Positions 680-32,000 of a stretch of 32,000 bases of DNA are shown one piece after another; the first letter of the stretch is position 1, and each line of letters opens with the position of its first letter. The translations under genes were made by a program, and so were the position numbers. Source of the DNA: Candidatus Heimdallarchaeota archaeon (GTDB lineage: Archaea > Asgardarchaeota > Heimdallarchaeia > JABLTI01); contig JAUWKS010000015.1 in NCBI GenBank assembly GCA_030614005.1, forward strand, positions 27,944 to 59,943, given 5' to 3'. The notes under the pieces were generated by a model. It had not been told where the DNA came from, made no database searches, and worked only from the letters and a program-made list of their open reading frames with translations.

Positions 680-716
680 GCGGGGGTAGCCCAGCTAGGT
701 CAAAGGCGCAGGGTTT
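680..716 (+). pseudogene. Orphan 5' half of a tRNA-Leu (acceptor 5' strand, D arm, anticodon stem 5' strand, U32-U33-U34)
   Basis: GCGGGGGTAGCCCAGCTAGGTCAAAGGCGCAGGGTTT is 33/37 identical to 7494-7530; no T-arm or acceptor 3' strand follows. Confidence 0.85.
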
Positions 717-7493: not shown

Positions 7494-7581
7494 GCGGGGA
7501 TAGCCCAGCATGGTCAAAGGCGCAGGATTTAGGCTCCTGTCTCGCAGGAGTACGCGCGTTCAAATCGCGTTCCCCGCACCA
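7494..7581 (+). tRNA. tRNA-Leu(UAG), intronless, CCA encoded
   Basis: Acceptor GCGGGGA/TCCCCGC, anticodon stem CAGGA/TCCTG with TAG at 7530-7532, long variable arm, T arm GCGCG-TTCAAAT-CGCGT, ACCA end. Confidence 0.97.
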
Positions 7582-7681
7582 ATCATATTATTTTCTATTA
7601 TTTGTTGTTACTTCCTTTCGTTGTTTTAAACTAAGATGTCTTTAAGAAAGCAAAGACGTACACTATTTCAGGAGAAATTTA

Positions 7682-9307
7682 ATGTCTGCATTCTTACATT
7701 GGGAATCGGATCCTTTACTACTCGATCTTACACCAACAGTACAAAACACTTGGGTAACTGCAAATGAATTATTGGAGAAAGAGACAAGGGACAAATTCCA
7801 AACAGAAGCAGAGCGTCTATTATTATATCCAATTATAATCCGTAAAGTAGATTTTATTACCGGTGAGCGCATTTTACAATCCTTCCCGTACATTCTCCTA
7901 AATCAAGAGTGGATTTCAAGGATACGAAAACAATCACTGGCTCATGCAGAGAAAGCACATCACTATTTTTTAGGGTCAAATATTTCAAAATCCATTCGAG
8001 ACTGGCAGCGAAAGATCATCAATTATCTCGAAGAGCAACAACGCCTCCCCTTTCCTCTTTTCCGGTTGATCCCCTCTTGGGAAACCTTCTTTCAAGGAAA
8101 ACAGTACATCCAATTTCAATCTGCACGAGGTGAAGGTTTTCAACTTCCACTCAAACTCACAGAAGAATTAGCATATTTAGTAGGTGTTGTGATGGGTGAT
8201 GGACACCTAGCGAACTACTTCGTTAATATAATTGATAGCTCGAAGGAGCATATTGAGAACCTTGTTAAATCATTAAAAAGAATATTTCAAACCAACATCG
8301 AATTTTTCGTTCAAAAAAACGCTCAAGCATGGAATGTCAATCTGCTTGGTAAATGGATTGTTCGGTTCTTTAATTTCCTATCCGGACAACCAATAGCCCA
8401 ACGAAAATATCCTCACTTGCGAGAACCACATCTCTTTCAAGACAAACCTTCCTTTCGTTCTGCCTTCTGGCGTGGACTTATGGATGCAGATGGGAGCTAT
8501 ATATCAACAATCAGTTTTGGCACAGCATCAAAAAAATTACTAAAAGATTTTTCAGACTTTTTAACCCAACAGAATATCCATCATCGATTCTATGAACAAT
8601 CAGTTTTTGGTGGTACAACATATAGTTTCAATATTGCTGGTGAATCTAGAAAGCAGTTTACACAGCTCATTGGTTCAAATCATCCGCAAAAAAAGTTGGA
8701 ATTAGAGAACTTACTCACTAGAAGAGTTAATCGTTTTGCTCGAAAAAGTGCAACATTGCGTAAACAAGGATTTTGGAAAGGGCAAGTAGTAGAAATTCAA
8801 CAAAAGAAAATGGTTGCTGGATATTTTAACTTTTTATTAATGCCACATTTCAGTTTGTCAACTTTCGGTGAAGAAATACGAAAATTGCGTCGTTTCCACA
8901 ATCACACTCAACAAAGTTTAGCAACAGAAGTCAATATTAAGAGGACATTGTTATCAAATTATGAGTTAAATATTACAACAATTCCAATAGCTGATTTAGA
9001 TAAAATATACTCATTCTATAATCGTTCATTATTAACCATTCTCAAAGAATATCCAAAGCTATTCATTCATTCTAGAAGTTCCCATTGTATGATAGATACC
9101 CAACCAAATAAAAAATTGTTACAATTACTAAGTGGTTTGCAATTTAAGGAAAGAGGATGTATAATGATTCTTAGAGAGAACAACAAGTCTAATGTTTCTT
9201 ATAGAGAAGAACTTAGTGATTATTTTTCCATAGATATAAAGTCAAATCGATTCCACAATTCAGCGCTTAATAACTTTGTAAGAGAGTTTTTTGTTCTTCG
9301 GAAGTAA
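7682..9307 (+). CDS. Free-standing double-motif LAGLIDADG-family protein fused to an XRE-type HTH
   Basis: LAYLVGVVMGDGHL and AFWRGLMDADGS motifs; EIRKLRRFHNHTQQSLATEVNIKRTLLSNYELN is an XRE HTH; AGGAG ribosome-binding site upstream. Confidence 0.8.
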   Translation: MSAFLHWESDPLLLDLTPTVQNTWVTANELLEKETRDKFQTEAERLLLYPIIIRKVDFITGERILQSFPYILLNQEWISRIRKQSLAHAEKAHHYFLGSNISKSIRDWQRKIINYLEEQQRLPFPLFRLIPSWETFFQGKQYIQFQSARGEGFQLPLKLTEELAYLVGVVMGDGHLANYFVNIIDSSKEHIENLVKSLKRIFQTNIEFFVQKNAQAWNVNLLGKWIVRFFNFLSGQPIAQRKYPHLREPHLFQDKPSFRSAFWRGLMDADGSYISTISFGTASKKLLKDFSDFLTQQNIHHRFYEQSVFGGTTYSFNIAGESRKQFTQLIGSNHPQKKLELENLLTRRVNRFARKSATLRKQGFWKGQVVEIQQKKMVAGYFNFLLMPHFSLSTFGEEIRKLRRFHNHTQQSLATEVNIKRTLLSNYELNITTIPIADLDKIYSFYNRSLLTILKEYPKLFIHSRSSHCMIDTQPNKKLLQLLSGLQFKERGCIMILRENNKSNVSYREELSDYFSIDIKSNRFHNSALNNFVREFFVLRK

Positions 9308-9571
9308 TGTGTTGAATTTAGAAAGAAAAAACTCAATAGTTCACGCTTGGTGGCGTGCTCGCATCGCCGCTACTCATCGCTTACAGCGATTCCTCACGCG
9401 TCAGTACGAATAATTATTGAAAAATTTTTATAAAAAATGCCAAAAACTACAAATCTAGCATAATCAGAAAGGAATGTCATTTTTTCTGCCGCTTATAAAG
9501 GAGAAGAGCATTTTTTAGCTCTTTATAAATAAAACCGACAAAAAGTACATTGAGAGATAGCTTCTGATAAT

Positions 9572-12500
9572 TTGGAAGGCATTTTCTCCTTTGAGAGTGG
9601 TTTAATGAGTATAGAAACATTCACGAAAAAGAGCATCCCTCTTTGCCTTTCATTAGGCATTACTTCTGTTTTAGAGCAAGGAGAATTGTTAGATGATCCT
9701 GTATTACATACCTTAACTCCCGAAGAACAAAAATTACTAGTGCTAAATGACAAAAGTCTCGCTTTAATATGCAAAAATTATCAACCAAAAAAACGCAGTC
9801 TTAATCCTATCCTAGTTTCCCTTGCAGTTCGTCGAATACTAGCTTTAAGAAAGCATAGTAAATTTCCGGTCTTTATTGTTGTAAAGTCAAAGAAGGATGG
9901 AGAAGCGTTACTTAATGAACTAACCAAATATGCAGATACTTGTAAACTCTATAATATGATCTTTAATTTGAAAGACAAAATTGATCAGGATTTTAAATCC
10001 CAGAACCATACCACAGCCGATTTTATTCTGCTCACCTATAAAAAACTGAGAGATTTAGTGGTGAACAAAGTTTGTCCAACAACAGAACAAATAGTCTTTC
10101 TTAATCCGCTAACTAAATACCGATGCCAAGAGGAGATAATTGATTTAGATATAATTATTGGTGGGCTTTACAGGCATAAGTGTCGAAGACCTCAGCTTTC
10201 CTTTCTTCTAGATAGTGCTCAGTTTCCAGTGCTTACTCGAGATGAATACAAATACTTACTCAAAGTTGATGATTGTCTTTTCTTTCGCTGTCAAGAAGGG
10301 TTTCGAACACAGAACAACAAACCATTTAGAAATTTTTTACCAAATTTATCTGATGAACACTATCAATTTTTCATCTTTGGTGAGCTCTTTCGTGGAAGAA
10401 AAAGTTCCGCTGATTTACGAAGGAAAATTCAAGAGACTATAACATACAAGCTGCATCTATTTAGTAACAATATCTATCCAGAGTTAGCAAGGAACAACAT
10501 CGAACTCAAAAATAAAATAGAAAAACGAAAAATGAAAATAGATAAACGAGTGCAAATAAAACTTAATCAAATATTAAACTTATTTACCAAGGGAGTATCG
10601 CACACCATCTATGGGCACGTACAAAGCAATTCGATAAAAAACACTTTCTCCTGGCAGGAGCCAGCTGAATCCGCTCCTTTTCTTCCATTAGTGGTGAAGA
10701 AGAAAGATAGCAAATACTATCTTACAGGACTAGGAGAAGCAGTCCTTATTGCCACCTCAAATATTGCAGGAATAGAGCACGGTTTTTCATCCTTTTTAAA
10801 TAAATTAGCTGGTTGTTTATTCAAACGGAACAAAGCAAGCACCAAATTATCTCTCGAAGAGATCATTAGATTTTATTGTCTATTAGTCGGTCTAGAAAAT
10901 ATAGACTTTCCAGTATTACCAGAACAGAGTGAGCATAAAAATTTAGATTCTTTCGTTAATGATTCCTTTGATGTTTACGACCAATTTATTGAGCGAGAGT
11001 TTGGTTTTATAATCAAGGATTATGCCAGTTTTGCATCTATACAATTACTGAGTGCCTTTGAGAAATTAATGGAAACCAATGCTTTCCTATTCTTCCAACG
11101 ATTGAAAAGTTACAAAAAGAACAAGAAAAGAACATGGGAAGAAAAAAGAAGTGAAGCAATACTAAAATCTGCGGGGTATGAACCTGTAACTGTAAAGCAA
11201 ACTGGCTTGAAATTTCACCTTGACTTTCAAAAAACGAAAAAGGAGTTGGAAAATTTCAAAGCGGAAGGATTGCTTATCTCACTAAAAACTTTCGATAACA
11301 GTGGTAGTTCAGAACTCAAGTATGGTACTCCAGAATTATTTACTAAATTTCCATATCTAAAGAAAACGTGTGGGAATTGTATGTGCCATAATAAGCGATT
11401 CAAGACCTGTTTACTCCTACGTCTTCTCCAAGCACACAATCCAAGCTTAGTACCGAGTGACTATCAAAACTATGCTCAAAGCTCTATTAGATCAGAAGCA
11501 ACAGCGTGTAAATACCATAAAGATCTAGCTGATTTTGATTCTGTCCTCGATAGAGTGCGATTTACTGCAAATATCCAAAAACTCTCTCTAAAAATGAGAA
11601 AAATAGCTGATTCATACTTCCTTGGGCAAACAAAAAAAACTGTTTTCCATTGTTGCTCATGTCAAGAAAAAATTGCAGAGTTCGGTTCTGAGGAGCAGCT
11701 ATTCTTTCCTCGAAAACGTGTTAGTTGTCCAAAGTGTTCTACAGTTTATTTAAAGAAAAATGAAGAAAAAATAACTATTCATACTGAACATCGCCATTAT
11801 CTTAGAATGCTCTATTATCAAATAGCAGGGTCTATCCCACAAGTGTTGCTGGAAAAAGATCCTTCGTATGCTTTTGTAATCTACGATAATGAAATGATAA
11901 AGTTAGAAAGGAAGAGCGATAAATCATTTATTCTTAGTATCTGCAAAAATGAGATCCCACTTGAAAAAGTAGAATATATTTTCTTTTCAGGGAAACGCTA
12001 CAAAAGAATAGAGAAATTCTTAGAAACATTAGCACAATTTGAACCAGAGAAATACCATTACACTAATAGTAGAGCAAAACCTAAATTGAAGAAATCAAAA
12101 AAGAATTTGTCGAGTGAATCATCTCAAGAGAAACCATTCACTAAGGAACAATACCAGTTCCTGCAAACAATTATTTCCTATCTGGGTGAGAAGAAAACAT
12201 TCAACCAGTCATTTTTACAAGCTAGACATCTATCAAATATTGGCGGAGGGTTATACCTCAGAAAAACAAACCTAGGAAAAGAAAACCCGAATGAGTATAT
12301 TGATCGTCAGTTATTCGAAATGATTGATTTACAAATTAGGGTTGCAGGAGGGGTGCGCTCTCGTTATTATGGCATGCAATTGGAAGCACAAAGTAACAGA
12401 TTTTTCTTTGAATTGCTCAAAGATGAAGGGGCAAAAGTTGGTCTCTGGACGCGCGGAAGAGTTACCTCACGGTTAGTTAAGGATATGTTCCTTTCCTATA

Positions 12501-13708
12501 GCCGGAAAACGAGCTATGCATATGCACCATTAGATGTGATCCTAAATCAGTTTATCAGGGGCTTTCGCTCAGAAATTGATGAGATATTTAGAAGGATTGG
12601 TCTTGAGCCTGCTCTCATGGGTGCAGGATTATTCCATAAAAGACGAACAAAATCGGATATAGATAATCTTGGGTTATATTTTGATCTTATAGAACCTGTA
12701 CGAGTGCTTGCATTAATCACTATGTTTGAAGCAATGCAGGCAGGAGTACTCACTATTGATGACTGTTCACTCGTTCTAGGGCAGAAAGGACAAGAGATCT
12801 ATCGGATAAAAAACAACGCTCAAAAGAAAATCAAAAAACTAATCACAGCAGCAGTTTCACTGCCAGTATATTTGCAAGGTAAAACTACTCCCTTTCTCCA
12901 AGCATTTGAGCAATATTTACTAACTTTTAGAGAAGCAATCTTGAGTTGTTTTGAAGATTTTCGACAGGAAAAACAGCTAAGCATGAGAAAAATCAAACAA
13001 TGTTTTCAAGAAGCAAATTTTAACCCTTTTGTTATATGCCCTTCTGGAATCGAAAGCGATCTCTCCCTGGTGAACAAGTTTGCTACAGAGTATGCAGACT
13101 TGTATGCCGGAAGCGAAGAGAGAGTTCTCGCAGCAAGAGATGCTCGTAATGCATTTCGAGGGATTGTAATACAGGAATGGCGTATTTGGAATAATAAGCG
13201 AGGACGGGATAAATTACAGCTCACTACATTCCAAAAGAAGGAACAGGATAGAAGTTTGCTAATAGTACTGGTTCTACTTTCCTATGCTCTTCAGATGGAA
13301 CTATATTTCGCAAAATATTCAACAAATCATATTCGAGAACTATTACAATTGACGCAAAATCAAACCCAAAGGATTCTTTCGCAAATGGTTAATCGGGGTT
13401 TGTTAATTCGTGAAAAAATCAACAGTCAATGCTATTATCAATTAAACACCACCAATCGAATGGTACAGGAATTACTATACTCTATAGGAAAAATTCCTAC
13501 TGAAGGAGAAATGCTTCTAGAGTTGGTAAGAAACTTTGACCATATCAATACAAGAACAATCAATCTAATTACCTCTTTGGAAGCGATTGATCACTCTCTT
13601 CAGCTAAAGCAAAACAATTTATGGATTGATTGGTTCCCTCCGAGAACTTTACTGCGAATTATGAATCGTATTGTAGAGCACCTGAAAATTTATGGACAAT
13701 ATTTCTGA
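9572..13708 (+). CDS. Giant multidomain Cas1-like protein: degenerate helicase-like N-terminus, wHTH, Cys-rich/Zn ribbon, Cas1 catalytic domain, C-terminal wHTH (start may be ATG 9605)
   Basis: GMQLEAQSNRFFF, PLDVILNQF, IGLEPALMGAGLFH and LYFDLIEPVR align by eye to the Cas1 motifs LxGxEGxAAxxYF, DPxNxxLNYGY, GLDPxxGxLH and LxxDLxExFR; E938, H1022, D1038/E1041. Confidence 0.75.
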   Translation: MEGIFSFESGLMSIETFTKKSIPLCLSLGITSVLEQGELLDDPVLHTLTPEEQKLLVLNDKSLALICKNYQPKKRSLNPILVSLAVRRILALRKHSKFPVFIVVKSKKDGEALLNELTKYADTCKLYNMIFNLKDKIDQDFKSQNHTTADFILLTYKKLRDLVVNKVCPTTEQIVFLNPLTKYRCQEEIIDLDIIIGGLYRHKCRRPQLSFLLDSAQFPVLTRDEYKYLLKVDDCLFFRCQEGFRTQNNKPFRNFLPNLSDEHYQFFIFGELFRGRKSSADLRRKIQETITYKLHLFSNNIYPELARNNIELKNKIEKRKMKIDKRVQIKLNQILNLFTKGVSHTIYGHVQSNSIKNTFSWQEPAESAPFLPLVVKKKDSKYYLTGLGEAVLIATSNIAGIEHGFSSFLNKLAGCLFKRNKASTKLSLEEIIRFYCLLVGLENIDFPVLPEQSEHKNLDSFVNDSFDVYDQFIEREFGFIIKDYASFASIQLLSAFEKLMETNAFLFFQRLKSYKKNKKRTWEEKRSEAILKSAGYEPVTVKQTGLKFHLDFQKTKKELENFKAEGLLISLKTFDNSGSSELKYGTPELFTKFPYLKKTCGNCMCHNKRFKTCLLLRLLQAHNPSLVPSDYQNYAQSSIRSEATACKYHKDLADFDSVLDRVRFTANIQKLSLKMRKIADSYFLGQTKKTVFHCCSCQEKIAEFGSEEQLFFPRKRVSCPKCSTVYLKKNEEKITIHTEHRHYLRMLYYQIAGSIPQVLLEKDPSYAFVIYDNEMIKLERKSDKSFILSICKNEIPLEKVEYIFFSGKRYKRIEKFLETLAQFEPEKYHYTNSRAKPKLKKSKKNLSSESSQEKPFTKEQYQFLQTIISYLGEKKTFNQSFLQARHLSNIGGGLYLRKTNLGKENPNEYIDRQLFEMIDLQIRVAGGVRSRYYGMQLEAQSNRFFFELLKDEGAKVGLWTRGRVTSRLVKDMFLSYSRKTSYAYAPLDVILNQFIRGFRSEIDEIFRRIGLEPALMGAGLFHKRRTKSDIDNLGLYFDLIEPVRVLALITMFEAMQAGVLTIDDCSLVLGQKGQEIYRIKNNAQKKIKKLITAAVSLPVYLQGKTTPFLQAFEQYLLTFREAILSCFEDFRQEKQLSMRKIKQCFQEANFNPFVICPSGIESDLSLVNKFATEYADLYAGSEERVLAARDARNAFRGIVIQEWRIWNNKRGRDKLQLTTFQKKEQDRSLLIVLVLLSYALQMELYFAKYSTNHIRELLQLTQNQTQRILSQMVNRGLLIREKINSQCYYQLNTTNRMVQELLYSIGKIPTEGEMLLELVRNFDHINTRTINLITSLEAIDHSLQLKQNNLWIDWFPPRTLLRIMNRIVEHLKIYGQYF

Positions 13709-13724
13709 TAAACAGGTGAATTAC

Positions 13725-16700
13725 ATGACTAAAATAAATGATATTAATAGACAAAATGACACAACTCAAAAATTTCCTTTAGAAGTAACTACTCCAAGAG
13801 AATGGGTTCCAATACTTACATTACCACCATCCAAACCAAGAGTGAAGACCGATTTTGTTTGGGCAGATCTCCTCCCTAAAGAAGCAGAAGGGTTCGGAGC
13901 AGTTCTTGAGTCAATAGTGCAAAGTAATCACCCCTATGAGCATCAAGAAGAAGCAATACAACATTTGCTGAATTCATCAACCACTAATAATGGGTTAATC
14001 ATTAATGGTGGAACGTATTCAGGGAAATCACTCTCGTTTAGTGTTCCTGGAATAGCTAAAATATTAACAGGTGAAACTGATTTTTTTGTTGTATTCTATC
14101 CATCGAAACAGCTCTTGTTGGATCAATTTGACCGTATGAAAGAATTAGTTGTAAAATTGGAAGAGCAGAGTGGGAAACGATTATCGGTTAAGATGTATAG
14201 TGGCGATACTAGCAGATCAACAGGTTCAACAGCTAGTAGGCAAGTACAAAAAAAAGAGCTCTTCGAAACAGAGCAACATCCACCAAACATCCTTTTAGCA
14301 ACGTTCGATAAATTTTGGTACCAGATGATGAGTGGAAAAAAGAATCCGTTGTTTGATAAAATTATGTCTTGTCAATATTTGGTTTTTGATGAGATACATG
14401 CCTTTGAAGGCTTTGCTGCAGCAATCATTAAGGGATTTGTACAGATACACAAGAAAAAGAATCCCAAGTGTCATGTTGTTCTTTCCTCCGCAACGATTGA
14501 CAATGTTATTGGTTTTCGAGATGATTTCTTACAAGGGGCAGGAATTATTACCTGCCCTCCTGTACGTGGTGAACATGAATTTCTTGGAATAACGAAAGAG
14601 CATACTGTACCTTTTCTTGCTGATCTTTGGCACGAACTAGATACTTTACCGGGAAAATTCTGCTTAGTATTCATGGACTCTAAAGAGGAGATTGAATTAT
14701 TAGCGGAACGACTGTGTGCAAAGCTTAAGCAAGACCACCCATTCTTTGAGGAAATAACTGTAGTAATAATTCATGCGGACTTGGCGTATGCTCAACGAAA
14801 AAAGATACTTGATGAGATAAAGAAGGGAACAAGGAATAGAATAAAGATACTCATTTCCTCTTCTGTTTTAGAGCTAGGAGTTAATATCCCAAATGTCCAA
14901 ACAGTAGTAAATATCGGGATACCAATAACACAAAAGGATGGTATTGTCCAAAGATTCGCTCGAAACCGTTCTAACCCAAGTGAAAGACGGGTGAATGTCT
15001 GTATTTTTAATCTAGCTAATTCTCGAGACAACTTCTATTGGCATCATCTGGAAATACTACGTAATATACTTGAAACAAATGCATGTAATCCCATATTGTA
15101 TCCAAGGCAGAACCCCAAGATTTTAGCAGGCTTGCTTGTGCTACATTTACGATATGGTATCAATGATTATCAAGAAATAATGTCGTTCTTCTTGAAAGAA
15201 GGAAGGAAAGTCTATGAAATAGCTCGACAGCAATACACTAAACTCATTAGTTTCAACGTGCTAAAAAAAGCACAAGGTAAAATATTGTTTACCAACCAGG
15301 GAGAAAATAGACTTCTACAATTGAAAAACAAAAATGTTCTTGTTCCATTATCTATCCGAGCAATTAGTGCTAATTGGTCAATACAATTGAAGAAAGGTAT
15401 TGATACTATTCGGTTAACAGATCGAACAACTTCCCTAGGTAAAATTTCAACCAAAGATGTGCTAAAGAAAGGTTTGTCTGGTAATCTTATTATTAGGAAT
15501 AGGAAGAAATACCTAGTTACTGATGTCGATATTGGGCATAAAACTGTCTTTGTGAAAAAATATTTTATTGATGATTCGGATGATACATTCTCTTTACCAC
15601 CAATGAATCAATTATATGACCCAACAATTTCAGTTGGCGTATTTCCGAAGAAAATTCAAGGAACAAGATTAGTGGGCATTAATTTTGGATTGATAACCAC
15701 CTATCGAAAGCCTAAGATAATAGTTAATGCTAATCCAAATGCTATGTATCTTAATGAAAGTAGCAGGAACGAAAACAACAATTATTTTTATCAAGAATTG
15801 ACACAGCAAGAATCGGACGAGTTAACCCTATCTGAAAAATCAGAAGGTATCATCATAAACATGGAAAACGAATTATTAAAACCAAAAAACCTTACTGCTA
15901 AGAAAATGCTAAAATTATTTGGTGAGATTCTACTAATTGAAGCTGAGATGGTTCTTTCTATACCTGCTTCTGAATTTGAACTCGTGTATAATGCAAATCA
16001 ATTGGCAATTTATGATAAAGGAGAACCAAATGGAAATGCAGAATATTTGTTTTTACACTTACAGGAAGTAGCCCAACAAGCATTACAGAGATTAGGGCAA
16101 TGTTCCTGTGAGCGAGGGTGTGAATATTGCTATGGTGAGATTCTGGGTCTTTTACCTGATGGTTCCAAAGAATATCTAAAACAATTGGTAAAAGATATGG
16201 TCAATATTTCAAATTTAGAGACACTTGATCATATATCATTAATTGAACCCAATTTGGAAATCGATTCACAAGAGAATAGGATCATTGCTTTTTCAGACGT
16301 TCATCTTACACATGAGTTATGCTATCATGAAGAATTTTTTGATGTTATTAGTAAATTCAGCAAAAAGGCGGATGTTATTATTATAAATGGTGACTTGTTG
16401 GACAAAGTGTCTGAGGAAAGTAAAGATGTATTCAATCAATTAAAAACAAAAGCAATACAGGAGGGATACTGGTCGAAATTAGTGTTTATTCGAAGTTCTT
16501 CTATTCATGATGGCAATCTCGAACAATTTTCTGGTTTTCTCCACCAAGATTATGTTTATATTGAATCTAAAACAGAGCAAGTGCTTTTTGTCCATGGGAA
16601 TAAAATAGGTATAGATGCTAAGTTAGCGAATAGCACTAGTATTGAAGTAGCAGCTATTCAAGCGAAAAAAGAGCTCATTAAAACCGGTAGAAGCTGGCTG

Positions 16701-16883
16701 CCAGATATAACTGAGGGAACTCATTTAGTAATCGGTCATTTACATCATCGATTCTACAATGAGCGTTTCCGTGTGTATGGTTTAGGTCATTGGTTGAAGA
16801 AAGGAAAAGAACGTCATCAGAAAATCTTAATGATAATTGATTCAGCTAAGGAATTGGATGAAATAAAGCTTTATCAGTATTGA
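13725..16883 (+). CDS. YprA/MrfA/Hrq1-like DEAH helicase + DUF1998 Zn domain + calcineurin-like metallophosphoesterase
   Basis: Q motif PYEHQEEAI, GGTYSGKS, DEIH, SAT, LELGVNIP; DUF1998-type IYD...CSCERGCEYC; MPE motifs SDVH, NGDLLD, IHD, VHG, GHLH; AGGTGA ribosome-binding site favours ATG 13725 over 13692. Confidence 0.85.
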   Translation: MTKINDINRQNDTTQKFPLEVTTPREWVPILTLPPSKPRVKTDFVWADLLPKEAEGFGAVLESIVQSNHPYEHQEEAIQHLLNSSTTNNGLIINGGTYSGKSLSFSVPGIAKILTGETDFFVVFYPSKQLLLDQFDRMKELVVKLEEQSGKRLSVKMYSGDTSRSTGSTASRQVQKKELFETEQHPPNILLATFDKFWYQMMSGKKNPLFDKIMSCQYLVFDEIHAFEGFAAAIIKGFVQIHKKKNPKCHVVLSSATIDNVIGFRDDFLQGAGIITCPPVRGEHEFLGITKEHTVPFLADLWHELDTLPGKFCLVFMDSKEEIELLAERLCAKLKQDHPFFEEITVVIIHADLAYAQRKKILDEIKKGTRNRIKILISSSVLELGVNIPNVQTVVNIGIPITQKDGIVQRFARNRSNPSERRVNVCIFNLANSRDNFYWHHLEILRNILETNACNPILYPRQNPKILAGLLVLHLRYGINDYQEIMSFFLKEGRKVYEIARQQYTKLISFNVLKKAQGKILFTNQGENRLLQLKNKNVLVPLSIRAISANWSIQLKKGIDTIRLTDRTTSLGKISTKDVLKKGLSGNLIIRNRKKYLVTDVDIGHKTVFVKKYFIDDSDDTFSLPPMNQLYDPTISVGVFPKKIQGTRLVGINFGLITTYRKPKIIVNANPNAMYLNESSRNENNNYFYQELTQQESDELTLSEKSEGIIINMENELLKPKNLTAKKMLKLFGEILLIEAEMVLSIPASEFELVYNANQLAIYDKGEPNGNAEYLFLHLQEVAQQALQRLGQCSCERGCEYCYGEILGLLPDGSKEYLKQLVKDMVNISNLETLDHISLIEPNLEIDSQENRIIAFSDVHLTHELCYHEEFFDVISKFSKKADVIIINGDLLDKVSEESKDVFNQLKTKAIQEGYWSKLVFIRSSSIHDGNLEQFSGFLHQDYVYIESKTEQVLFVHGNKIGIDAKLANSTSIEVAAIQAKKELIKTGRSWLPDITEGTHLVIGHLHHRFYNERFRVYGLGHWLKKGKERHQKILMIIDSAKELDEIKLYQY

Positions 16884-17034
16884 CAAAGCTAAATCATCCC
16901 TCTGTTAATTTTTCATAAATACTCATAAATTTCTCTATAAAGCGAATTCAAGGTTTTCAACAATATAATAATAGAACCTTAAAATTAATAAGCTATCAAG
17001 TAAGATTAATTTGTTGATTGGTGAGAGGAAAAAA

Positions 17035-25740: not shown

Positions 25741-25819
25741 ATTAACAATATAGTAAAGGATTAATTCTGAAAGATTTGAAATCAGTAAGAAAAGGAAATC
25801 TCTTGAGCACAAGTAAGAT

Positions 25820-25867
25820 ATCTTGTTTTGTAGAAGTTCGCGCGTTCGAATCGCGCACTCCGCACCA
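25820..25867 (+). repeat. Orphan, decayed 3' half of a tRNA-Leu (att-like)
   Basis: ATCTTG-TTTTGTAGAAGTTC-GCGCG-TTCGAAT-CGCGC-ACTCCGC-ACCA is colinear without gaps with 7534-7581; no 5' half upstream. Confidence 0.85.
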
Positions 25868-25910
25868 GTTCTTGACGTCTATAATAAAACATTAATAATC
25901 TGTTGAAAAA

Positions 25911-25945
25911 TAGATTAATGTAATTAAAAACACTATTGATTTCAC
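25911..25945 (+). repeat. Left copy of a 35/36-bp direct repeat flanking the dcd operon
   Basis: TAGATTAATGTAATTAAAAACACTATTGATTTCAC vs 29523-29558: 32/36 aligned, last 18 bp identical. Confidence 0.8.
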
Positions 25946-26025
25946 CAGTAGAACCAACAAGTAGATTTTTAGAAAAAAATATTTTGAGAACCATGGGGTA
26001 TAAAATTAGATTCTGAATATTCCTT

Positions 26026-26661
26026 TTATTCGAGTCTTTCCTTATTTTTTTCATCAATATATTTACCTAATTTAATAATTTCTGGGTCTTCAAATATTTT
26101 TGAATATCCAGGTCCTAGTTCTCCATAATATTTAGATTTCCTAGTGATTATTTCTTCTGTTTTTAGTTTATGAAAAACAATTTGTGCGATTCTCAATCCA
26201 GGATATAAATAAACTGGAATTTCTCCGATGTTTGCAATTTCAAATGTTAAATTCCCAGTATAACCGGGATGTACATGTGTTGCAGTAGCATGAATTACAA
26301 TTCCTAATCGCCCCCATGAAGATCTACCACTCAAATATCCCATTAGATCATACGGCAATCTTAGATATTCCAACGTTGAAGATAATATGAAACTACCAGG
26401 ATGCATAACAAGATAATCCCCAATATCGAGCCTAAAGATTTCTTGAGAATTTCTTGCTATTTCTTTATCATCTTTGCTAACTACATCAATCTTTGATGAT
26501 TGTATCATTTTTGAAGGCATAAAAATAAATCCCAATCTGAGATCTACAGAACCCTTATCAATCTGTTTTTCTTCATCCAATAAAGGCATAATATACAGTC
26601 TTTTCATTGGTTTTGGATGTCTTAGATAATCGTGAATATCTTTTGAAGATAGTATAACCAT
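26026..26661 (-). CDS. dcd: dCTP deaminase (trimeric dUTPase fold)
   Basis: GSVDLRLG, PGSFILSSTLE, GRSSWGRLG, HPGYTGNLTFE, RIAQIVF. Confidence 0.92.
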   Translation of the reverse strand: MVILSSKDIHDYLRHPKPMKRLYIMPLLDEEKQIDKGSVDLRLGFIFMPSKMIQSSKIDVVSKDDKEIARNSQEIFRLDIGDYLVMHPGSFILSSTLEYLRLPYDLMGYLSGRSSWGRLGIVIHATATHVHPGYTGNLTFEIANIGEIPVYLYPGLRIAQIVFHKLKTEEIITRKSKYYGELGPGYSKIFEDPEIIKLGKYIDEKNKERLE

Positions 26662-26673
26662 TTTCTGTGTCCC

Positions 26674-28083
26674 CTATTTTTCCTTTAAGAAATTGAGCTC
26701 ATAACGAAGATAACTTAGTTCAATAGAATTCGAAATATATTTATTTATATAAGTAAATACCTCTTCATCATTTGCAATGAAAGTTTCATTACTTATTAGT
26801 TCTTTAATTGAATCTAATTTGTTTCTGTATAAATACCATCCAAAATTTAGAATCTCAATGAAATTAAAATTCCTAAAATTAGGAGTATGTTTTGGTTCAT
26901 AAACCTCACTAATTGGTACAGAGATATCGAATTGCTCCTCTAATTCACTAATTTTTGATTTCAAGTAATTTAAGTCTACACTTTGGTTATCAGTTTTTTC
27001 TTCTACAACTTCGATGATTTTTTCTTTTAGATTATTTAGAATAAATAGTAATGTTTCCTGAGTTATAAAATCTTCAATATTGGTTTTTTCGGTTGTATTT
27101 TTTAGTTCTTTAGTTAGATTAGATACGTGCTCATTAATTATATGATTTATTTCATCGTCAACAAAAATTTGATATTTATTAGAATTTCGCTTTATTATTT
27201 CATTTAGAAAATAAAAGCGCAGACAATTTGGTGGATGTGTACTTTGGAATGGTCCAGAAATATCATCAGTTGAAAAAATCCAAATAAACGAATATAAAAA
27301 TGAGAATCCAAATATTCTTAGTGCAAAAATATCTGAAACTATTTCATTTACCCATTTGTGAATTTTAAATTTGAGTTTGTTTATAATTGGATCAGGATAT
27401 TTTGATAAAATCTTTGAAAAATCAGTTGTAAAAATTTGATCATGAATATTTTGATTTTTATAGAAATAATGCCCAAGCTCATGACCATATAAAGAATGAA
27501 TTAGTGGCATTTCCTTAAGTGTATAAGGAAAAGATAAAACTATTGATTCAATAGTGAATTTATTAAGGAATGATTCTATATTTTCGAAATGATCAGGAAG
27601 AAAATTTTTCAGATCTGAGAGTATATATCTTATTGAATAATTTATTTGCCATTTTGCTTGAAAGACTAAATTATATTCAAAATCATTTTTTGTTGAAACT
27701 TTATTAAATAAATCTTTTAAAGGATATAAAAATTCAAAAGGAATATCCTTTTTATTTGCATTTGATATTATTTCCAAAAGAGTATAGCTTACATTCTGAA
27801 CAATCGTATGTCTCTGTATCTTTGAAAAATTAGCATCAAAAAAAATCTTATCGTTAAAAATTTCTTTCTTTTGTTCATATAGATTTTGTAATTCTTCTTC
27901 CAAAATTTCGAGTTGCTTATTCATCAGAATTATTAAATCAATAAGATAATTCAGTAAATATCTTATACCTTTATAGTTGCTAAATGTATTTTTGTGTTTT
28001 TCAATCCAATCCATTAGTGCTTTATAATAAATCTTAATATATGAAATAGCATTTTTAATTCTAGTATAAAATGGATTATCCAT
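26674..28083 (-). CDS. Hypothetical HExxH protein (putative gluzincin-type metallopeptidase)
   Basis: YGHELGHYF, downstream EIVSDIFAL (third ligand position) and THPP; 469 aa. Confidence 0.65.
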   Translation of the reverse strand: MDNPFYTRIKNAISYIKIYYKALMDWIEKHKNTFSNYKGIRYLLNYLIDLIILMNKQLEILEEELQNLYEQKKEIFNDKIFFDANFSKIQRHTIVQNVSYTLLEIISNANKKDIPFEFLYPLKDLFNKVSTKNDFEYNLVFQAKWQINYSIRYILSDLKNFLPDHFENIESFLNKFTIESIVLSFPYTLKEMPLIHSLYGHELGHYFYKNQNIHDQIFTTDFSKILSKYPDPIINKLKFKIHKWVNEIVSDIFALRIFGFSFLYSFIWIFSTDDISGPFQSTHPPNCLRFYFLNEIIKRNSNKYQIFVDDEINHIINEHVSNLTKELKNTTEKTNIEDFITQETLLFILNNLKEKIIEVVEEKTDNQSVDLNYLKSKISELEEQFDISVPISEVYEPKHTPNFRNFNFIEILNFGWYLYRNKLDSIKELISNETFIANDEEVFTYINKYISNSIELSYLRYELNFLKEK

Positions 28084-28090
28084 TATTTAG

Positions 28091-28558
28091 TCAATTCCGT
28101 ATTGGTATTGGAGATTTATAAGATTCTTCGATATTTTCAATTGATGATTTCAAAGTGCTTTTACTAAGTAAAGAGACTTTTTCTCTAAGAGAATTTAGAT
28201 TATCTTTCGAAATGGTTTCTTTATTACTTTTTAACATTTTTAATTCAATTAAAATTTCTTCAAGAAAATGATATGAGGCTTCCAATTTCACAATATAATC
28301 ATTTTTAGTGTCAACTTCAGCTGGAAATATTTCTTCAATTCTAAGAAAACTTTTCGATTTTAGAGATGTAGAATCAGGCCTTTTATCAAGTAGAATGATT
28401 TCGATTTTTGAAATAGAATTATCTAAAATTAAATAATCTTTTTTCGATAAACTCAGATTCATATATATTTTTGTTAGCGTAATAGCTAAATCATCGAATA
28501 AAAAACCAATGTTTACTAATTTTCCAACAGTCCCTAATGAATAAAAATCAGATGTCAA
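28091..28558 (-). CDS. Hypothetical helical protein, first gene of the dcd operon
   Basis: 155-aa ORF with a TTG start and GGTGGA upstream; ends 7 nt before the next gene. Confidence 0.65.
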   Translation of the reverse strand: MTSDFYSLGTVGKLVNIGFLFDDLAITLTKIYMNLSLSKKDYLILDNSISKIEIILLDKRPDSTSLKSKSFLRIEEIFPAEVDTKNDYIVKLEASYHFLEEILIELKMLKSNKETISKDNLNSLREKVSLLSKSTLKSSIENIEESYKSPIPIRN

Positions 28559-28954
28559 TAGCTCAGTCCACCATACATTTTTTCAATCGCTTTTTTATTA
28601 AATATCTTTGTTTATATATATATATTTTGAGAACGGAAACGTCTCAATATATATTTCGTCTTATTTCTTATAAATACCTATAAATGATTCTTTATTATAA
28701 ATAAGTAATGATTAGGGATTTAATCTACCAATATTATTTTATATTGATTTAATTTTGTAAAAATTCATATTCCCAACTATATTTTATTCTATGCTTTTCT
28801 TTTTCACGATTATTTAGACATTTAATTTGAATTTTTACTAATTGTGCTCTAATATTAATACTACGCAATTCCTTTTCTAGATCTAAATGAAATTCTTCAC
28901 CACTAACGATTGGTTTTATTTTATCAATTACAGGATTCCGACCAATAATATGAT

Positions 28955-29294
28955 ATGTAATTTCTGGTTTTATCGAAATTCCTTTTCCTGAACTCTTTAT
29001 TAATAGAATAAATGGTTTACAATTAAGAGTTGATAACTTAATTGAGTATTTACAGAATGAGAATATAGAAATTATGAAATTTCAATTGGAGAATCTGATG
29101 AAGATTTTAAAGAAATTTCTCTTTCAATTAAGTTAGAGCAACATGAAAAGAGAATTGATTCAATAAACAATCGTTTAGATTTAATCCAAAGAAATAACGG
29201 AATTACGATGATAATTATCTCAACAACGTCATCATTAATTTCTACTTTTTTTGCTATACTTCATATTTTAGTCATCAAATTAAATATAATTTAA
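28955..29294 (+). pseudogene. Possible frameshifted remnant of a coiled-coil protein with a C-terminal membrane anchor
   Basis: Two overlapping open frames (...FIEIPFPELFINRINGLQLRVDNLIEY... and ...LEQHEKRIDSINNRLDLIQRNNGITMIIISTTSSLISTFFAILHILV...) with no proper start. Confidence 0.25.
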
Positions 29295-29522
29295 TATCTA
29301 TAAAATCATTTTATCACTTATTTTTTTCCTATTAATTAAAATCAATTTATAACCCAAACTAAATGATCTCTAATTTGCTTGCTAAATTACGCATTTCATT
29401 ATAGGTCTAATTTTAATTAAAGGACTAATGATGGAAATATTGTTTACTAACGATCTTGTTCAATTATCTATTATATAACGTAAAATGTGTTTAGTTGTCA
29501 GAGGAATTTAAATAATATAAGC

Positions 29523-29558
29523 TAGATTAGTGTAACTCATAAACACTATTGATTTCAC
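29523..29558 (+). repeat. Right copy of the 35/36-bp direct repeat
   Basis: TAGATTAGTGTAACTCATAAACACTATTGATTTCAC, immediately before the GGGTGA ribosome-binding site of the ABC gene. Confidence 0.8.
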
Positions 29559-29571
29559 TGGGTGAATTACT

Positions 29572-30249
29572 TTGGGTAAAACGATTTTACAAACTACTGA
29601 TTTGATTAAAATTTTCGCCGAAGGAACTCCATTAGAGGTTCACGCATTACGTGGTGTTAATTTGGCAATAGGGCAGGGTGAAATTGTAGCTATTATGGGT
29701 CCATCTGGATGTGGAAAAACTACTTTGCTAAATATGATTGGTGGTTTAGATAAACCTACTTCTGGCAGGGTAATTATCAATAATCAAGAAATCACTGATT
29801 ATTCAGATAAAGATATCACCGATTTTAGAAAGAAGAACCTTAGTTTTATTTTCCAATTCTTCAATCTTTTCGAAGTTTTAACCGCAGTTGAGAATGTTTC
29901 TTTGCCCCTTCTACTTAGAGGAGAACCAACCGCTGAGGCCCAAGAAAAAGCCAAAGTTATTTTACGAGAAGTAGGAATTGGCAGTCGATTGTATAATAGA
30001 CCTAATGAAATGTCAGGTGGTCAGCGCCAAAGAGTAGCTATTGCTCGTTCACTAATCACCAATCCCAAAATCGTTTTGGCTGATGAACCAACTGGTGATT
30101 TGTCCAGCGTAATATCTAAAGATATTATGAAACTGTTTAGAAGATTAAATGAAGATCTTGGTCAAACATTTGTTCTAGTTACTCATTCTGAATTAATCGG
30201 TTCTCTTTGTGATAGAATCATAAAGATGCATGATGGGTTAATTATTTGA
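29572..30249 (+). CDS. ABC transporter ATP-binding protein (LolD/MacB-like)
   Basis: GPSGCGKT, MSGGQRQRVAIARSL, LADEPTG, LVTH. Confidence 0.95.
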   Translation: MGKTILQTTDLIKIFAEGTPLEVHALRGVNLAIGQGEIVAIMGPSGCGKTTLLNMIGGLDKPTSGRVIINNQEITDYSDKDITDFRKKNLSFIFQFFNLFEVLTAVENVSLPLLLRGEPTAEAQEKAKVILREVGIGSRLYNRPNEMSGGQRQRVAIARSLITNPKIVLADEPTGDLSSVISKDIMKLFRRLNEDLGQTFVLVTHSELIGSLCDRIIKMHDGLII

Positions 30250-30326
30250 TGTACGAACATGATTTTTTCTTTCAAACCATCTGAAAATGAGAAACAATTT
30301 TAAGTTTTAAAATTGAAGTAGAAGGT

Positions 30327-31847
30327 ATGTCAGATATTGAAAAAGGTTCTGAAGAAGCAGAACTCGAATTGGAACTTGCTCCAAAAGATGATTCTATCGT
30401 CCTTGAAACGAAAACATCTTTTTGGAATGTTTTCAAATGGTCAATGTATGACCTAGCAAATACCATTTATTCTATGGTTATTGTTTCACTCATTATTAAC
30501 CAATATGTGTTGGTTATTGGCCAGGCCGATTTTGGTTTAAGTTACACAAGAGCTGATGCTGTTTTTAACATCGTTGTTGCTGTAATGCAAATCATAGTTG
30601 CAATTGGAATGCCTATTATGGGTGCTTTAAGTGATACTGCTGGCAAACGTAAACCATTTGTTCTTGTTTTAACAGGAATTATCTTGCTATTTGGCAGTCT
30701 TTTAGGTTTAAAACTTGGTGATGGAACCCATAGTTTGACAATGGTTCTAATATTTTATGTTATTGCCAACATTGCTTATCAATGGAGCTTAGCTTTTTAT
30801 GATGCAATGTTACCATTTATTGCTAGTCCAAAAGATGCCGGAAAAGTTGGTGGTTTTGGAGTAGCTTTTGGTTATTTTGGAACCTTAATTGGTATGGCAG
30901 TTATGATGGTTCTTGCAATATTTTGGGGTGGTACACCAAATAGTGACTCTGCAGAAGGTGTCTTGAAACTTGGTTATGTAGATAATCCTTGGACTTTTGT
31001 GATTACTATGGGATTGTTTGCTCTTTGTGCTTTGCCATTTATCTTTGTAAATGAACGTCAGAAAAAAGGGAAAACACCTCCAATAAAAGATGTCATTCTT
31101 GGGTCTTTTAGACAAGTTGGTAGTACATTCAAAGATATTCGTAAACATAAAGAGATGCTCAAATTCATCATTGGTTATTTCCTTGTTGTTGATGTTGCAA
31201 ATATAATTATTGCAAAAATGTTTCTCATAGTTAAAGATGGGTTGAAGATAACAGACACTGTTACAAATATGAACCTTGATTTTGCTATGATCTTTATTAT
31301 TATATCAACAGTTTCAGCAGTTGCCTTAACCTATTTCGTAGGAATGATTGCAGATAAATGGGGTGGAAAAGTTGCTTTTTATGTTGTCGGCAGCTTATGG
31401 GGCATTGCAATACTCCTCGGTGTTTTCTTGATCTTCTTTGCTGCACCAATCTCTGTTGGAGGAAATATTGCTTTTGTATTCGTTTTGGTAATGGGCATAA
31501 TTGCTGGACCAGCTTTAGGTGGTACTTGGGTTGCCCAAAGAGCAATGATTGTTGAACTTGCTCCTAAAGAAAAATTTGGAGAGTACTTTGGTTTTTCAAA
31601 ACTAAGTGGTAAACTTTCTTCCGCTTTAGGACCATTATTATGGACTGCTGTTTTTCTTCTCTATGAAGCATTAGCTACACGATTCTTTGGGGAAAATAAT
31701 TATTATCTTTTCAAAGCTTATGGTTATGCAATGTTAGTTGCTGGAATAGTCATGGCAATTGGACTGGTAATTATTAGCTTCGTAAAACCTTCTCGAAAGC
31801 TATTATCTGAGGAACAACCACTCGAAGAAAGTGAGCCAGCAAAATAA
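30327..31847 (+). CDS. MFS transporter (UMF1/Atg22-like)
   Basis: About 12 TM helices; WSMYDLANT, GALSDTAGKRK, FYDAML, GMIADKWGGK, GEYFGFS. Confidence 0.9.
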   Translation: MSDIEKGSEEAELELELAPKDDSIVLETKTSFWNVFKWSMYDLANTIYSMVIVSLIINQYVLVIGQADFGLSYTRADAVFNIVVAVMQIIVAIGMPIMGALSDTAGKRKPFVLVLTGIILLFGSLLGLKLGDGTHSLTMVLIFYVIANIAYQWSLAFYDAMLPFIASPKDAGKVGGFGVAFGYFGTLIGMAVMMVLAIFWGGTPNSDSAEGVLKLGYVDNPWTFVITMGLFALCALPFIFVNERQKKGKTPPIKDVILGSFRQVGSTFKDIRKHKEMLKFIIGYFLVVDVANIIIAKMFLIVKDGLKITDTVTNMNLDFAMIFIIISTVSAVALTYFVGMIADKWGGKVAFYVVGSLWGIAILLGVFLIFFAAPISVGGNIAFVFVLVMGIIAGPALGGTWVAQRAMIVELAPKEKFGEYFGFSKLSGKLSSALGPLLWTAVFLLYEALATRFFGENNYYLFKAYGYAMLVAGIVMAIGLVIISFVKPSRKLLSEEQPLEESEPAK

Positions 31848-31953
31848 ACTGATATTCAATGAAATTTCCTTTTGGAAATTTCCATTCTTATTTTTTCTAA
31901 GAGAAAGATTTTTACTTGTTTTAATTAAATTACAATAAAGGTGTATAAAGAAA

Positions 31954-32000
31954 ATGTCAGAGAACAAACTAGTTTCAAAAGGACCTGTTCTTGATCGTAT
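31954..32000 (+). CDS. Start of a gene truncated by the window edge (MSENKLVSKGPVLDR...)
   Basis: ATG at 31954 with AAGGTG upstream; frame stays open to the end of the window. Confidence 0.35.
   Translation, partial: MSENKLVSKGPVLDR

What the first reader, a model, noticed from the sequence alone, without database searches (positions are those of the whole stretch)
25911..29558. 3.6-kb cassette bounded by a CRISPR-repeat-sized (35/36-bp) direct repeat just after the tRNA 3' half
Seen: the left copy is 43 bp after the orphan CCA and the right copy is 13 bp before the ABC gene start; 32/36 aligned with 18 contiguous identical bases. Removing one copy and the cassette joins the tRNA end directly to the ABC gene's ribosome-binding site, giving a clean empty site. 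The cassette encodes no mobility gene. Known: IS target duplications are usually 2-14 bp, while Cas1 duplicates repeats of about 30-37 bp during spacer integration. Inference: an independent gene-capture event, conceivably made in trans by the neighbouring Cas1-like protein as a gene-sized 'spacer'. I found no third full copy.
Basis: partly seen in the sequence, partly recalled or inferred. Interest (0 to 1): 0.7.

Follow-up and report, generated by a model that had tools for sequence, protein, structure and literature searches.

The report
Repeat-flanked gene cassette inserted beside tRNA-Leu
A 3.6-kb block of three probable defence genes really was inserted into a Heimdall-group Asgard archaeon just upstream of an ABC-transporter gene, copying a 36-base host sequence to both sides, but nothing in the sequence shows that the nearby Cas1-like enzyme did it.

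Summary
A 35-nt copy (25911-25945) and a 36-nt copy (29523-29558) agree in 32 of 36 columns. Their 18-nt exact core occurs only twice in the 3.6-Mb genome. They bracket 3,577 nt that nine related genomes or contigs lack. Two of these (G001, G010) keep one recognisable copy of the repeat between the tRNA-Leu end and the ABC gene, which is the predicted empty site.

The insert is cargo: a conserved operon (155-aa protein, 469-aa HExxH protein, dCTP deaminase) plus 964 nt of non-coding DNA. It has no recombinase, no terminal inverted repeats and no homology to the host beyond the repeat.

The neighbouring 1378-aa protein is Cas1-like by transitive homology. However, its module here is a truncated copy, and an intact relative on contig C9 shows no target duplication. 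The cassette ends resemble no Cas1-element end, and no other cassette uses this site.

Two points favour Cas1. The assembly has only one tyrosine recombinase hit and no serine recombinase hit. Other Cas1-like elements in the genus sit at tRNA ends with 33-35-nt repeats.

My reading is a real insertion scar made by an unidentified enzyme. Integration of an integrase-less cassette through an att-like copy of the site is most likely (about 0.4); Cas1 acting in trans is about 0.2. Earlier notes of this scan described similar repeat-separated stacks at other tRNAs of this genome.

The parts
680..716 (+). 5' half of the native tRNA-Leu gene (context)
   Evidence: One difference in 37 nt from the intact native tRNA-Leu of G001.
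7494..7581 (+). Intact tRNA-Leu(TAG), a foreign allele carried between the two islands (context)
   Evidence: ARAGORN and Rfam find it. It differs from the native allele by paired changes: G7A with C66U, and both strands of the anticodon stem.
9572..13708 (+). 1378-aa Cas1-like protein, the 'neighbouring Cas1' of the finding (context)
   Evidence: No direct Pfam Cas1 hit. Its C-terminal 529 aa have 21 homologues. Three of 16 aligned members match Pfam Cas_Cas1, best E 7.3e-12. E (90% or more), H and D columns are conserved.
25803..25867 (+). Displaced 3' half of the native tRNA-Leu, with an intron remnant, ending in the orphan CCA
   Evidence: Aligns to the intron plus 3' exon of G004 and to the 3' half of G001.
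25868..25910 (+). 43-nt spacer holding the AT-rich motif conserved upstream of the ABC gene in all relatives (probable native promoter, inferred)
   Evidence: Motif of the type TTCTAATAAT or ATTAATAAT seen in G001, G003, G004, G005, G009, G010 and L033.
25911..25945 (+). Left copy of the direct repeat (35 nt)
25946..29522 (.). Inserted cassette, 3,577 nt, 24-29% G+C, absent from all relatives
   Evidence: Homology break in G001 and G010. No DNA match in 81 class genomes apart from a 233-nt dCTP-deaminase hit. Composition.
26026..26661 (-). dCTP deaminase, 211 aa, last gene of the cassette operon
   Evidence: Pfam DCD 5.6e-37. TIGR02274 at 143.8 bits against a cut-off of 92.8. It is the only above-cut-off copy in the genus.
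26674..28083 (-). 469-aa protein with an invariant HELGH (HExxH) motif, probable zinc peptidase
   Evidence: No Pfam, NCBIfam or PADLOC hit. The motif is invariant in the two distant homologues. Peptidase_U49/M48 appear only as weak leads at 0.78.
28091..28558 (-). 155-aa protein, first gene of the operon, no detectable relatives by sequence
   Evidence: A 148-aa gene holds the same position in the Logan contigs.
28559..29522 (.). 964-nt AT-rich non-coding end of the cassette
   Evidence: All six frames are full of stops. No tblastx or blastn relative in the genome. No Rfam match.
29523..29558 (+). Right copy of the direct repeat (36 nt); its first 28 nt are identical to the single copy in G001
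29572..30249 (+). ABC-transporter ATPase gene whose leader was the target
   Evidence: Pfam ABC_tran 1.1e-38. GGGTGA ribosome-binding site at 29560-29565. dS 0.13 to G001 and 0.51 to G010.

Best explanation
The stretch is the scar of one real, lineage-specific integration event. A 3.58-kb piece of foreign DNA landed in the leader of an ABC-transporter gene. The target lies 43 nt downstream of a tRNA-Leu that is itself an integration hot spot. A 35-37-nt host segment now stands on both sides of the insert. This much is shown.

The insert is cargo, not a self-mobile element. It holds a conserved three-gene operon (small protein, HExxH peptidase-like protein, dCTP deaminase), which is probably an anti-virus module, plus about 1 kb of non-coding DNA.

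The mechanism is inferred. I think the incoming DNA was most likely a circular, integrase-less cassette that carried a slightly diverged copy of the 36-nt site. It would have recombined with the chromosomal site by att x att, Campbell-type recombination. The recombinase would have acted in trans or been lost since, and its identity is unknown. In that reading the right copy is the unchanged host site and most of the left copy is the element's version.

The insertion cut the ABC gene off from its conserved upstream AT-rich motif. An AT-rich stretch at the cassette's right end may now serve as promoter (inference).
For: Insertion with one-copy empty sites in G001 and G010, and cassette-free sites in six further relatives.

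The duplication is sharply bounded. There is no significant homology between the cassette's inner ends and the host flanks beyond the repeat (p 0.1-0.5).

No terminal inverted repeats. No recombinase domain or pseudogene in the cassette.

The cargo operon recurs as a 148-, 495- and 197-aa (DCD) operon in unrelated metagenome contigs, without flanking repeats there.

The dCTP deaminase is accessory in this genus.

The right copy matches the outgroups at every informative position. All differences lie on the left copy, at positions 8-18, next to an 18-nt identical core. This is what an element-borne att arm plus a crossover region would give.

The adjacent islands show element-borne tRNA sequence rather than a copied native sequence. 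The working tRNA-Leu is a foreign allele with compensatory changes, while the orphan halves are the native allele. One distal tRNA-Ala copy in G010 carries a compensatory T-stem pair.
Against: No enzyme for this route is visible. The 90%-complete assembly has one tyrosine recombinase hit, at a contig end, and no serine or SSV-type integrase hits.

The site is not in a tRNA gene, unlike typical archaeal att sites.

No second place with this sequence, such as an attP on another element, exists in 82 class genomes.

The asymmetry between the copies is statistically weak. The differences at positions 14-18 could be one complex mutation, and the right copy may be held by selection as the ABC leader.

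A circular cassette that already carries the site needs an earlier event to explain how it acquired it.
Confidence: 0.4

Rival explanations
1. Cas1-type integration in trans. One of the roughly ten Cas1-like integrases of this genome joined the 3' ends of a linear cassette to the two strands 35-37 nt apart. Gap repair then duplicated the segment, as happens with a CRISPR repeat or a casposon target.
For: The neighbour 9572-13708 is Cas1-like with conserved E, H and D columns.

About 10 such genes are in G000 and up to 15 in genus members. Conventional integrases are nearly absent.

Elements with a roughly 500-aa Cas1-like gene sit at tRNA-Ala, tRNA-Pro and tRNA-Lys ends. The bracketing repeats measured (tRNA-Ala, tRNA-Pro) are 33-35 nt. 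Proteins 77% identical use different tRNAs, while 44%-identical ones use the same tRNA, which hints at a target-flexible enzyme.

The duplication here is sharply bounded and of the same size.

Published work proposes aCas1 as a transposase because its loci are often flanked by repeats (PMC10691335).
Against: The local module is homologous to other copies only over 7630-16964, and its right end is a recombination breakpoint.

The intact 11-kb relative on C9 has IS605-like asymmetric ends sharing an 18-nt motif and no visible target duplication.

The cassette ends match no end of any Cas1-linked element, whereas the 3.5-kb insert in the tRNA-Ala stack keeps its family's end at 91%.

The target is not a tRNA end. 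Only two copies exist, with no array growth or other cassette in nine relatives.

The repeat is not a significant hairpin.
Confidence: 0.2
2. The duplication is a by-product of illegitimate or one-sided homologous recombination, with no dedicated enzyme. DNA from a relative, in which the cassette already lay directly upstream of the site and the ABC gene, was anchored by homology in the ABC gene. Its other end was joined illegitimately just after the recipient's own copy of the site.
For: No recombinase, no terminal repeats and no recognisable end motifs.

Recombination between lineages is evident at this locus. Islands 1-2 are shared with G010 at 85-89% identity although the core ABC gene has dS 0.51. 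The MFS gene of G000 is only 64-80% identical to both relatives, which are about 92% identical to each other.
Against: No donor with that arrangement was found.

The flanks on both sides of the cassette fit a single history with G001: dS 0.13 in the ABC gene and about 9-15% divergence in the non-coding left flank. No import boundary is therefore needed.

This route is documented in bacteria (my knowledge), not in archaea.
Confidence: 0.15
3. The cassette is ancestral and the relatives lost it by recombination between the two repeat copies.
For: Recombination between direct repeats would leave exactly one copy, as seen in G001 and G010.
Against: Eight genomes and one metagenome contig spanning the genus lack it.

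The cassette DNA and its dCTP deaminase are absent from the rest of the genus.

Its G+C content (24-29%) is below that of the flanks.

The more distant relatives do not even have a recognisable copy of the repeat sequence.
Confidence: 0.03

Closest known systems
Integrase-less att-flanked elements (cis-mobilisable elements, 'CIMEs', of streptococcal ICEs) and decayed integrated elements stacked at archaeal tRNA genes (e.g. Thaumarchaeota iMGEs, PMC6563490). Comparison from my knowledge.
   Same: Cargo DNA bracketed by imperfect direct repeats of a few tens of bases. A one-copy empty site in relatives. No recombinase gene of its own. Located at an integration hot spot with other islands.
   Different: The repeat is not part of the tRNA gene. 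No cognate integrase or second att-bearing element can be named. The genome has almost no tyrosine or serine recombinases.
Casposons (Cas1-driven transposons; PMC4046053, PMC5137440, PMC6977970)
   Same: Insertion next to a tRNA gene. A Cas1-family gene in the neighbourhood. A target duplication with sharp borders.
   Different: By my knowledge of that literature, casposons carry their own casposase and PolB, have terminal inverted repeats and duplicate 14-15 bp. Here there are no inverted repeats, the duplication is 35-37 nt, the cassette has no Cas1, and the Cas1-like gene lies about 12 kb away in another island.
CRISPR spacer integration by Cas1-Cas2
   Same: The duplicated segment has the length of a CRISPR repeat (about 36 nt) and lies at a fixed place downstream of a conserved 'leader-like' feature.
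   Different: The insert is 3.6 kb, not about 35 bp. There are two repeat copies only. No Cas2, array, leader motif or palindromic repeat is present.
Asgard aCas1 and aCas1-TnpB loci (Makarova et al. 2020, CRISPR J 3:156, not readable here; Altae-Tran et al. 2023, PMC10691335)
   Same: Same organism group and same protein family next door. The published proposal that aCas1 is a transposase rests on repeats flanking the loci.
   Different: Those repeats bound the aCas1 locus itself. Here the repeat bounds a separate cassette without aCas1 or TnpB.

Membership tests
Cas1-family integration product (CRISPR-like or casposon-like) | A Cas1-family integrase encoded in or near the unit | tested here: met
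   ORF 9572-13708 has no direct Pfam hit. Three of 16 aligned homologues of its C-terminal part match Cas_Cas1 (best E 7.3e-12), with conserved E, H and D columns. It lies about 12 kb away, outside the cassette.
Cas1-family integration product (CRISPR-like or casposon-like) | Sharply bounded duplication of the target | tested here: met
   35-37 nt, with no significant homology beyond it. The length fits CRISPR repeats, not the 14-15 bp of casposons.
Cas1-family integration product (CRISPR-like or casposon-like) | Insert ends recognised by the integrase (terminal inverted repeats, or ends shared with autonomous elements) | tested here: not met
   No terminal inverted repeat. No match to the ends of the C9-type element or of the tRNA-linked elements.
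Cas1-family integration product (CRISPR-like or casposon-like) | Repeated use of the same repeat (array growth, or other inserts at the site in relatives) | tested here: not met
   Two copies only. All nine relatives have no insert between the tRNA end and the ABC gene.
Cas1-family integration product (CRISPR-like or casposon-like) | Catalysis of the joining by the Cas1-like protein | not testable with these tools
   Needs an in vitro integration assay.
Site-specific integrative element (att duplication) | Direct repeats flanking the insert, and a single copy at the empty site | tested here: met
Site-specific integrative element (att duplication) | Tyrosine or serine recombinase gene in the element | tested here: not met
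   No hit in the cassette or the window. The genome has one PF00589 hit (C58) and none for PF00239 or PF16795. The 964-nt non-coding end shows no coding remnant.
Site-specific integrative element (att duplication) | Element-borne copy of the site that differs from the host copy outside an identical crossover core | tested here: inconclusive
   All differences lie on the left copy at positions 8-18, beside an 18-nt identical core, and the right copy equals the outgroup state. The numbers are small and other readings are possible.
IS element or DNA transposon with target-site duplication | Transposase, terminal inverted repeats, 2-14-bp duplication | tested here: not met
   None of the three is present.
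Defence-island cargo at an integration hot spot | Accessory genes absent from close relatives, next to other defence genes | tested here: met
   The cassette is absent from relatives. The window also holds a type I restriction-modification system and a helicase with a DUF1998-like zinc domain and a phosphoesterase domain. The defence function of the cassette itself is untested, with no PADLOC hit.

The most novel reading that the evidence does not exclude
An Asgard Cas1-like integrase, acting in trans, inserted a whole gene cassette into a non-repeat chromosomal site and duplicated a CRISPR-repeat-sized (about 36-nt) segment. That would be a natural 'gene-sized spacer' event. It would show that these enzymes measure a 33-37-nt stagger, the same size as the tRNA-end repeats around their own elements. 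It would also stand between casposon transposition and CRISPR adaptation.
Probability: 0.17. Interest if true: 0.85.

Novelty: new member of a known kind. Interest (0 to 1): 0.42.

Why it matters
The locus gives a clean natural before-and-after pair for DNA integration in a Heimdall-group Asgard archaeon. The filled site is in this genome, and the exact empty site is in a sister species (dS 0.13).

These genomes are full of islands separated by 30-46-nt repeats. They have almost no conventional integrases but many untested Cas1-like genes. The 92-nt empty-site sequence and the cassette ends are therefore a ready-made substrate for a direct test of what those enzymes do.

If the enzyme proves to be a Cas1 relative, the event would bear on how CRISPR repeat duplication arose. 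If not, it is an ordinary scar of horizontal gene acquisition carrying a candidate new defence operon.

Tried and rejected
1. Public reads: three cold-seep runs, held only as low-depth contigs (3-8x), bridge both junctions. They show no joint that skips the cassette and no circle junction. This says nothing about excision.

2. Other copies of the repeat core in 81 class genomes: none.

3. More sites: the metagenome scan with the ABC protein gave one further close relative (L033), with an empty site.

4. The cassette elsewhere: DNA search of the class found only a 233-nt dCTP-deaminase match. The HExxH protein has one same-strain fragment and two distant homologues. The 155-aa protein has no homologues. 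ENA contig L030 is the same strain, 99.4% identical, with the same left junction.

5. Repeats around the homologous operon in Logan contig L026: none convincing.

6. Integrase remnant or RNA in the 964-nt non-coding end: no signal from six-frame reading, tblastx, Rfam or tandem repeats.

7. Hairpin in the repeat: z about -1, not significant.

8. I first read the 95-99% identity of the right repeat copy plus the ABC gene to G001 as a recombination block ending at the cassette. I rejected this after dS came out at 0.13, the same as the non-coding left flank; the high identity reflects purifying selection.

9. Search for a living tRNA-Pro allele matching the distal repeat copy of a G005 element: none, so that copy is uninformative.

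10. Makarova et al. 2020 could not be read.
Full report
OBSERVATION

The orphan CCA (25865-25867) lies 43 nt before the left copy. The TTG start of the ABC gene (29572) lies 13 nt after the right copy, with a GGGTGA ribosome-binding site between them. The copies agree in 32 of 36 columns. All three substitutions and the 1-nt gap fall in the left half, followed by 18 identical bases.

The 18-mer, even with 2 mismatches, is expected 0.01 times in the window and is found twice. It occurs twice in the 3.62-Mb genome. The 19-nt core (up to 1 mismatch) was found in none of the other 81 genomes of the class.

Both junctions are bridged without differences by contigs of independent public runs from a cold-seep study and by an ENA contig. 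The structure is therefore not an assembly join.

THE EMPTY SITE EXISTS

In G001 and G010 (same genus), BLAST homology to the window runs up to 25945 and continues at 29519. The overlap is a single copy of the repeat. G001 is empty of everything: JAB gene, intact native tRNA-Leu, 43-nt spacer, one repeat copy, ribosome-binding site, ABC gene.

G002, G003, G004, G005, G009 and metagenome contig L033 also go from the tRNA-Leu, or its 3' fragment, to the ABC gene in about 90-130 nt without the cassette. At their distance the repeat sequence itself is no longer recognisable.

Beyond the 35-37 nt there is no significant similarity between the inner ends of the cassette and the host flanks. The duplication is therefore sharply bounded. 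Loss in all relatives is far less parsimonious than gain in this lineage.

WHAT WAS INSERTED

The 3,577 nt (24-29% G+C) carry one operon on the minus strand:
- a 155-aa protein with no relatives;
- a 469-aa protein whose only feature is an invariant HELGH motif (weak Peptidase_U49/M48 leads only);
- a bona fide dCTP deaminase (TIGR02274, 143.8 bits against a cut-off of 92.8).

The same three-gene order (148, 495 and 197 aa) recurs in Logan metagenome contigs of another organism, so the operon is a functional unit. No repeat brackets it there. Within the genus, only this genome has an above-threshold dCTP deaminase, so the gene is accessory. No PADLOC model matches. A defence role is inferred from the gene content and from the neighbours, a type I restriction-modification system and a helicase with DUF1998-like and phosphoesterase domains.

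The last 964 nt (28559-29522) are non-coding. They show no trace of a decayed gene, no RNA family and no relative in the genome. The cassette has no recombinase domain and no terminal inverted repeats.

THE SURROUNDINGS

The site lies at a crowded hot spot. The native tRNA-Leu gene is split. Its 5' half is at 680-716, one difference from G001. Its 3' half, with a remnant of an intron like that of G004, is at about 25803-25867.

Between the halves lie about 25 kb of islands and a complete tRNA-Leu (7494-7581). That gene is a different allele with compensatory changes: G7A with C66U, and both strands of the anticodon stem. The 41- and 46-nt 'repeats' around the two islands are therefore homology between native halves and an island-borne gene. 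They are not copies of one native sequence.

G010 shares the island ends at 85-89% identity, although its ABC gene has dS 0.51 to this genome. G001, which has no islands, has dS 0.13. The islands therefore moved between lineages.

IS THE NEIGHBOUR A Cas1?

The neighbour is Cas1-like, though only by transitive homology. Pfam does not see it. The C-terminal 529 residues of the 1378-aa protein have 21 homologues in 1.8 billion representatives. Three of 16 aligned members match Pfam Cas_Cas1 (best E 7.3e-12). The alignment keeps E (90% or more of members), H and D columns, together with two R, an N and two G. The genome has about ten such genes and genus members up to fifteen.

DOES THIS ENZYME FAMILY MAKE SUCH DUPLICATIONS?

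The evidence is mixed.

Against:
- The module in the window (LAGLIDADG-HTH protein, Cas1-like protein, helicase-phosphoesterase) is homologous to the other copies only from 7630 to 16964. Its right end is a recombination breakpoint, because the other copies continue together beyond it.
- The intact 11-kb relative on contig C9 has asymmetric, IS605-like ends. These share an inverted 18-nt motif, have many short derivatives at contig ends, and show no visible target duplication.
- The cassette ends match none of these ends. They also do not match the conserved left end of the tRNA-linked elements. By contrast, the 3.5-kb 'gene-sized' insert in the tRNA-Ala stack of contig C110 keeps its family's end at 91% over 117 nt, so it is a deletion derivative.

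For:
- The assembly (90% complete) has one tyrosine recombinase hit and no serine or SSV-type integrase hits.
- At least five tRNA loci carry stacked copies of their 3' ends, 30-46 nt long.
- Elements with a roughly 500-aa Cas1-like gene share a conserved end and sit at tRNA-Ala, tRNA-Pro and tRNA-Lys. The bracketing repeats measured (tRNA-Ala, tRNA-Pro) are 33-35 nt. Proteins 77% identical use different tRNAs, and 44%-identical ones use the same tRNA. That hints at an enzyme that does not depend on an element-borne att sequence.
- Altae-Tran et al. 2023 (PMC10691335) also propose aCas1 as a transposase on the ground of flanking repeats.

THE TWO COPIES COMPARED

With G001 and G010 as outgroups, the right copy shows no change of its own. 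The left copy carries all of them: position 8, and a cluster at positions 14-18. An element-borne att arm next to an identical crossover core would give this pattern. However, the cluster may be a single complex mutation, and the right copy may be conserved as the ABC leader. The test is therefore weak.

The divergence between the copies is 8-11%, against a neutral divergence of 13% between this genome and G001. If the copies started identical, the insertion is nearly as old as that species split.

I first took the 95-99% identity of the right flank to G001 as an imported block ending at the cassette. The synonymous rate shows it is simply a conserved gene.

VERDICT

The mechanism cannot be read from the sequence. 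I rank the readings as follows:
- integration through an att-like copy of the site, by a trans-acting or lost recombinase: about 0.4;
- Cas1-type staggered integration in trans: about 0.2;
- illegitimate or one-sided homologous recombination: about 0.15;
- loss in the relatives: about 0.03;
- the remainder (about 0.2), including an assembly artefact, is not assigned to any named mechanism.

The thing is best filed as an integrase-less cargo cassette at a tRNA-linked hot spot. Its main value is as a defined substrate for testing the Asgard Cas1-like proteins. Earlier notes of this scan described the Cas1-like module of this window and repeat-separated stacks at tRNA-Ala and tRNA-Asp of the same genome. 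I re-checked the Cas1 likeness and the tRNA-Ala stack myself.

Noticed in passing
window 680-716, 7494-7581, 25803-25867: The native tRNA-Leu is split into two orphan halves about 25 kb apart. The break appears to lie in or next to an intron like that of G004 and L033. A complete tRNA-Leu of a different allele, with compensatory changes, sits between the two islands and presumably replaces it. G010 has the same arrangement.
   Followed up: partly
window 30300-32000: The MFS transporter gene after the ABC gene is only 64-80% identical to both G001 and G010, which are about 92% identical to each other there. This suggests an allele replacement in this genome, unrelated to the cassette.
   Followed up: no
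genome contig C9:140901-152078 and many contig ends: The 11-kb TnpB, LAGLIDADG-HTH, Cas1-like and helicase element has two different conserved ends that share an inverted 18-nt motif (ATGTCCTATTTGTCCATA). Dozens of contig ends and roughly 330-nt mini-elements carry the same ends. The C9 copy shows no target duplication.
   Followed up: partly
genome contig C110:34604-58449; L115, L118, L120, L121, L122: Elements with a roughly 500-aa Cas1-like gene share a conserved sequence shortly after the CCA of tRNA-Ala, tRNA-Pro and tRNA-Lys in different genus members. The tRNA-Pro element of G005 is about 14.2 kb between 30-33-nt repeats. One distal tRNA-Ala copy in G010 has a compensatory T-stem pair of the G000 allele.
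   Followed up: partly
window 7682-9307 and at least 12 other places in the genome: The LAGLIDADG plus XRE-HTH protein is a multi-copy family (31-83% identity). It usually stands directly upstream of a Cas1-like gene.
   Followed up: no
genome contig C21:1-85 and 34755-34839: An exact 85-nt direct repeat begins at the first base of contig C21 and recurs 34.75 kb downstream; this may be a circular 34.7-kb replicon or virus, if the second copy lies at the contig's end.
   Followed up: no
genome contigs C102:1379-8837 and C95:29027-33754: A 50-68-nt non-tRNA repeat recurs five or six times at spacings of 0.86-4 kb in intergenic DNA. Its nature is unknown.
   Followed up: no
window 25868-25910 and 29500-29522: The AT-rich motif conserved upstream of the ABC gene in all relatives now lies upstream of the left repeat copy and points into the cassette, antisense to the dCTP deaminase gene. 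A TTTAAATAATAT stretch at the cassette's right end stands at a similar distance from the right copy and may have taken over as promoter (inference).
   Followed up: no
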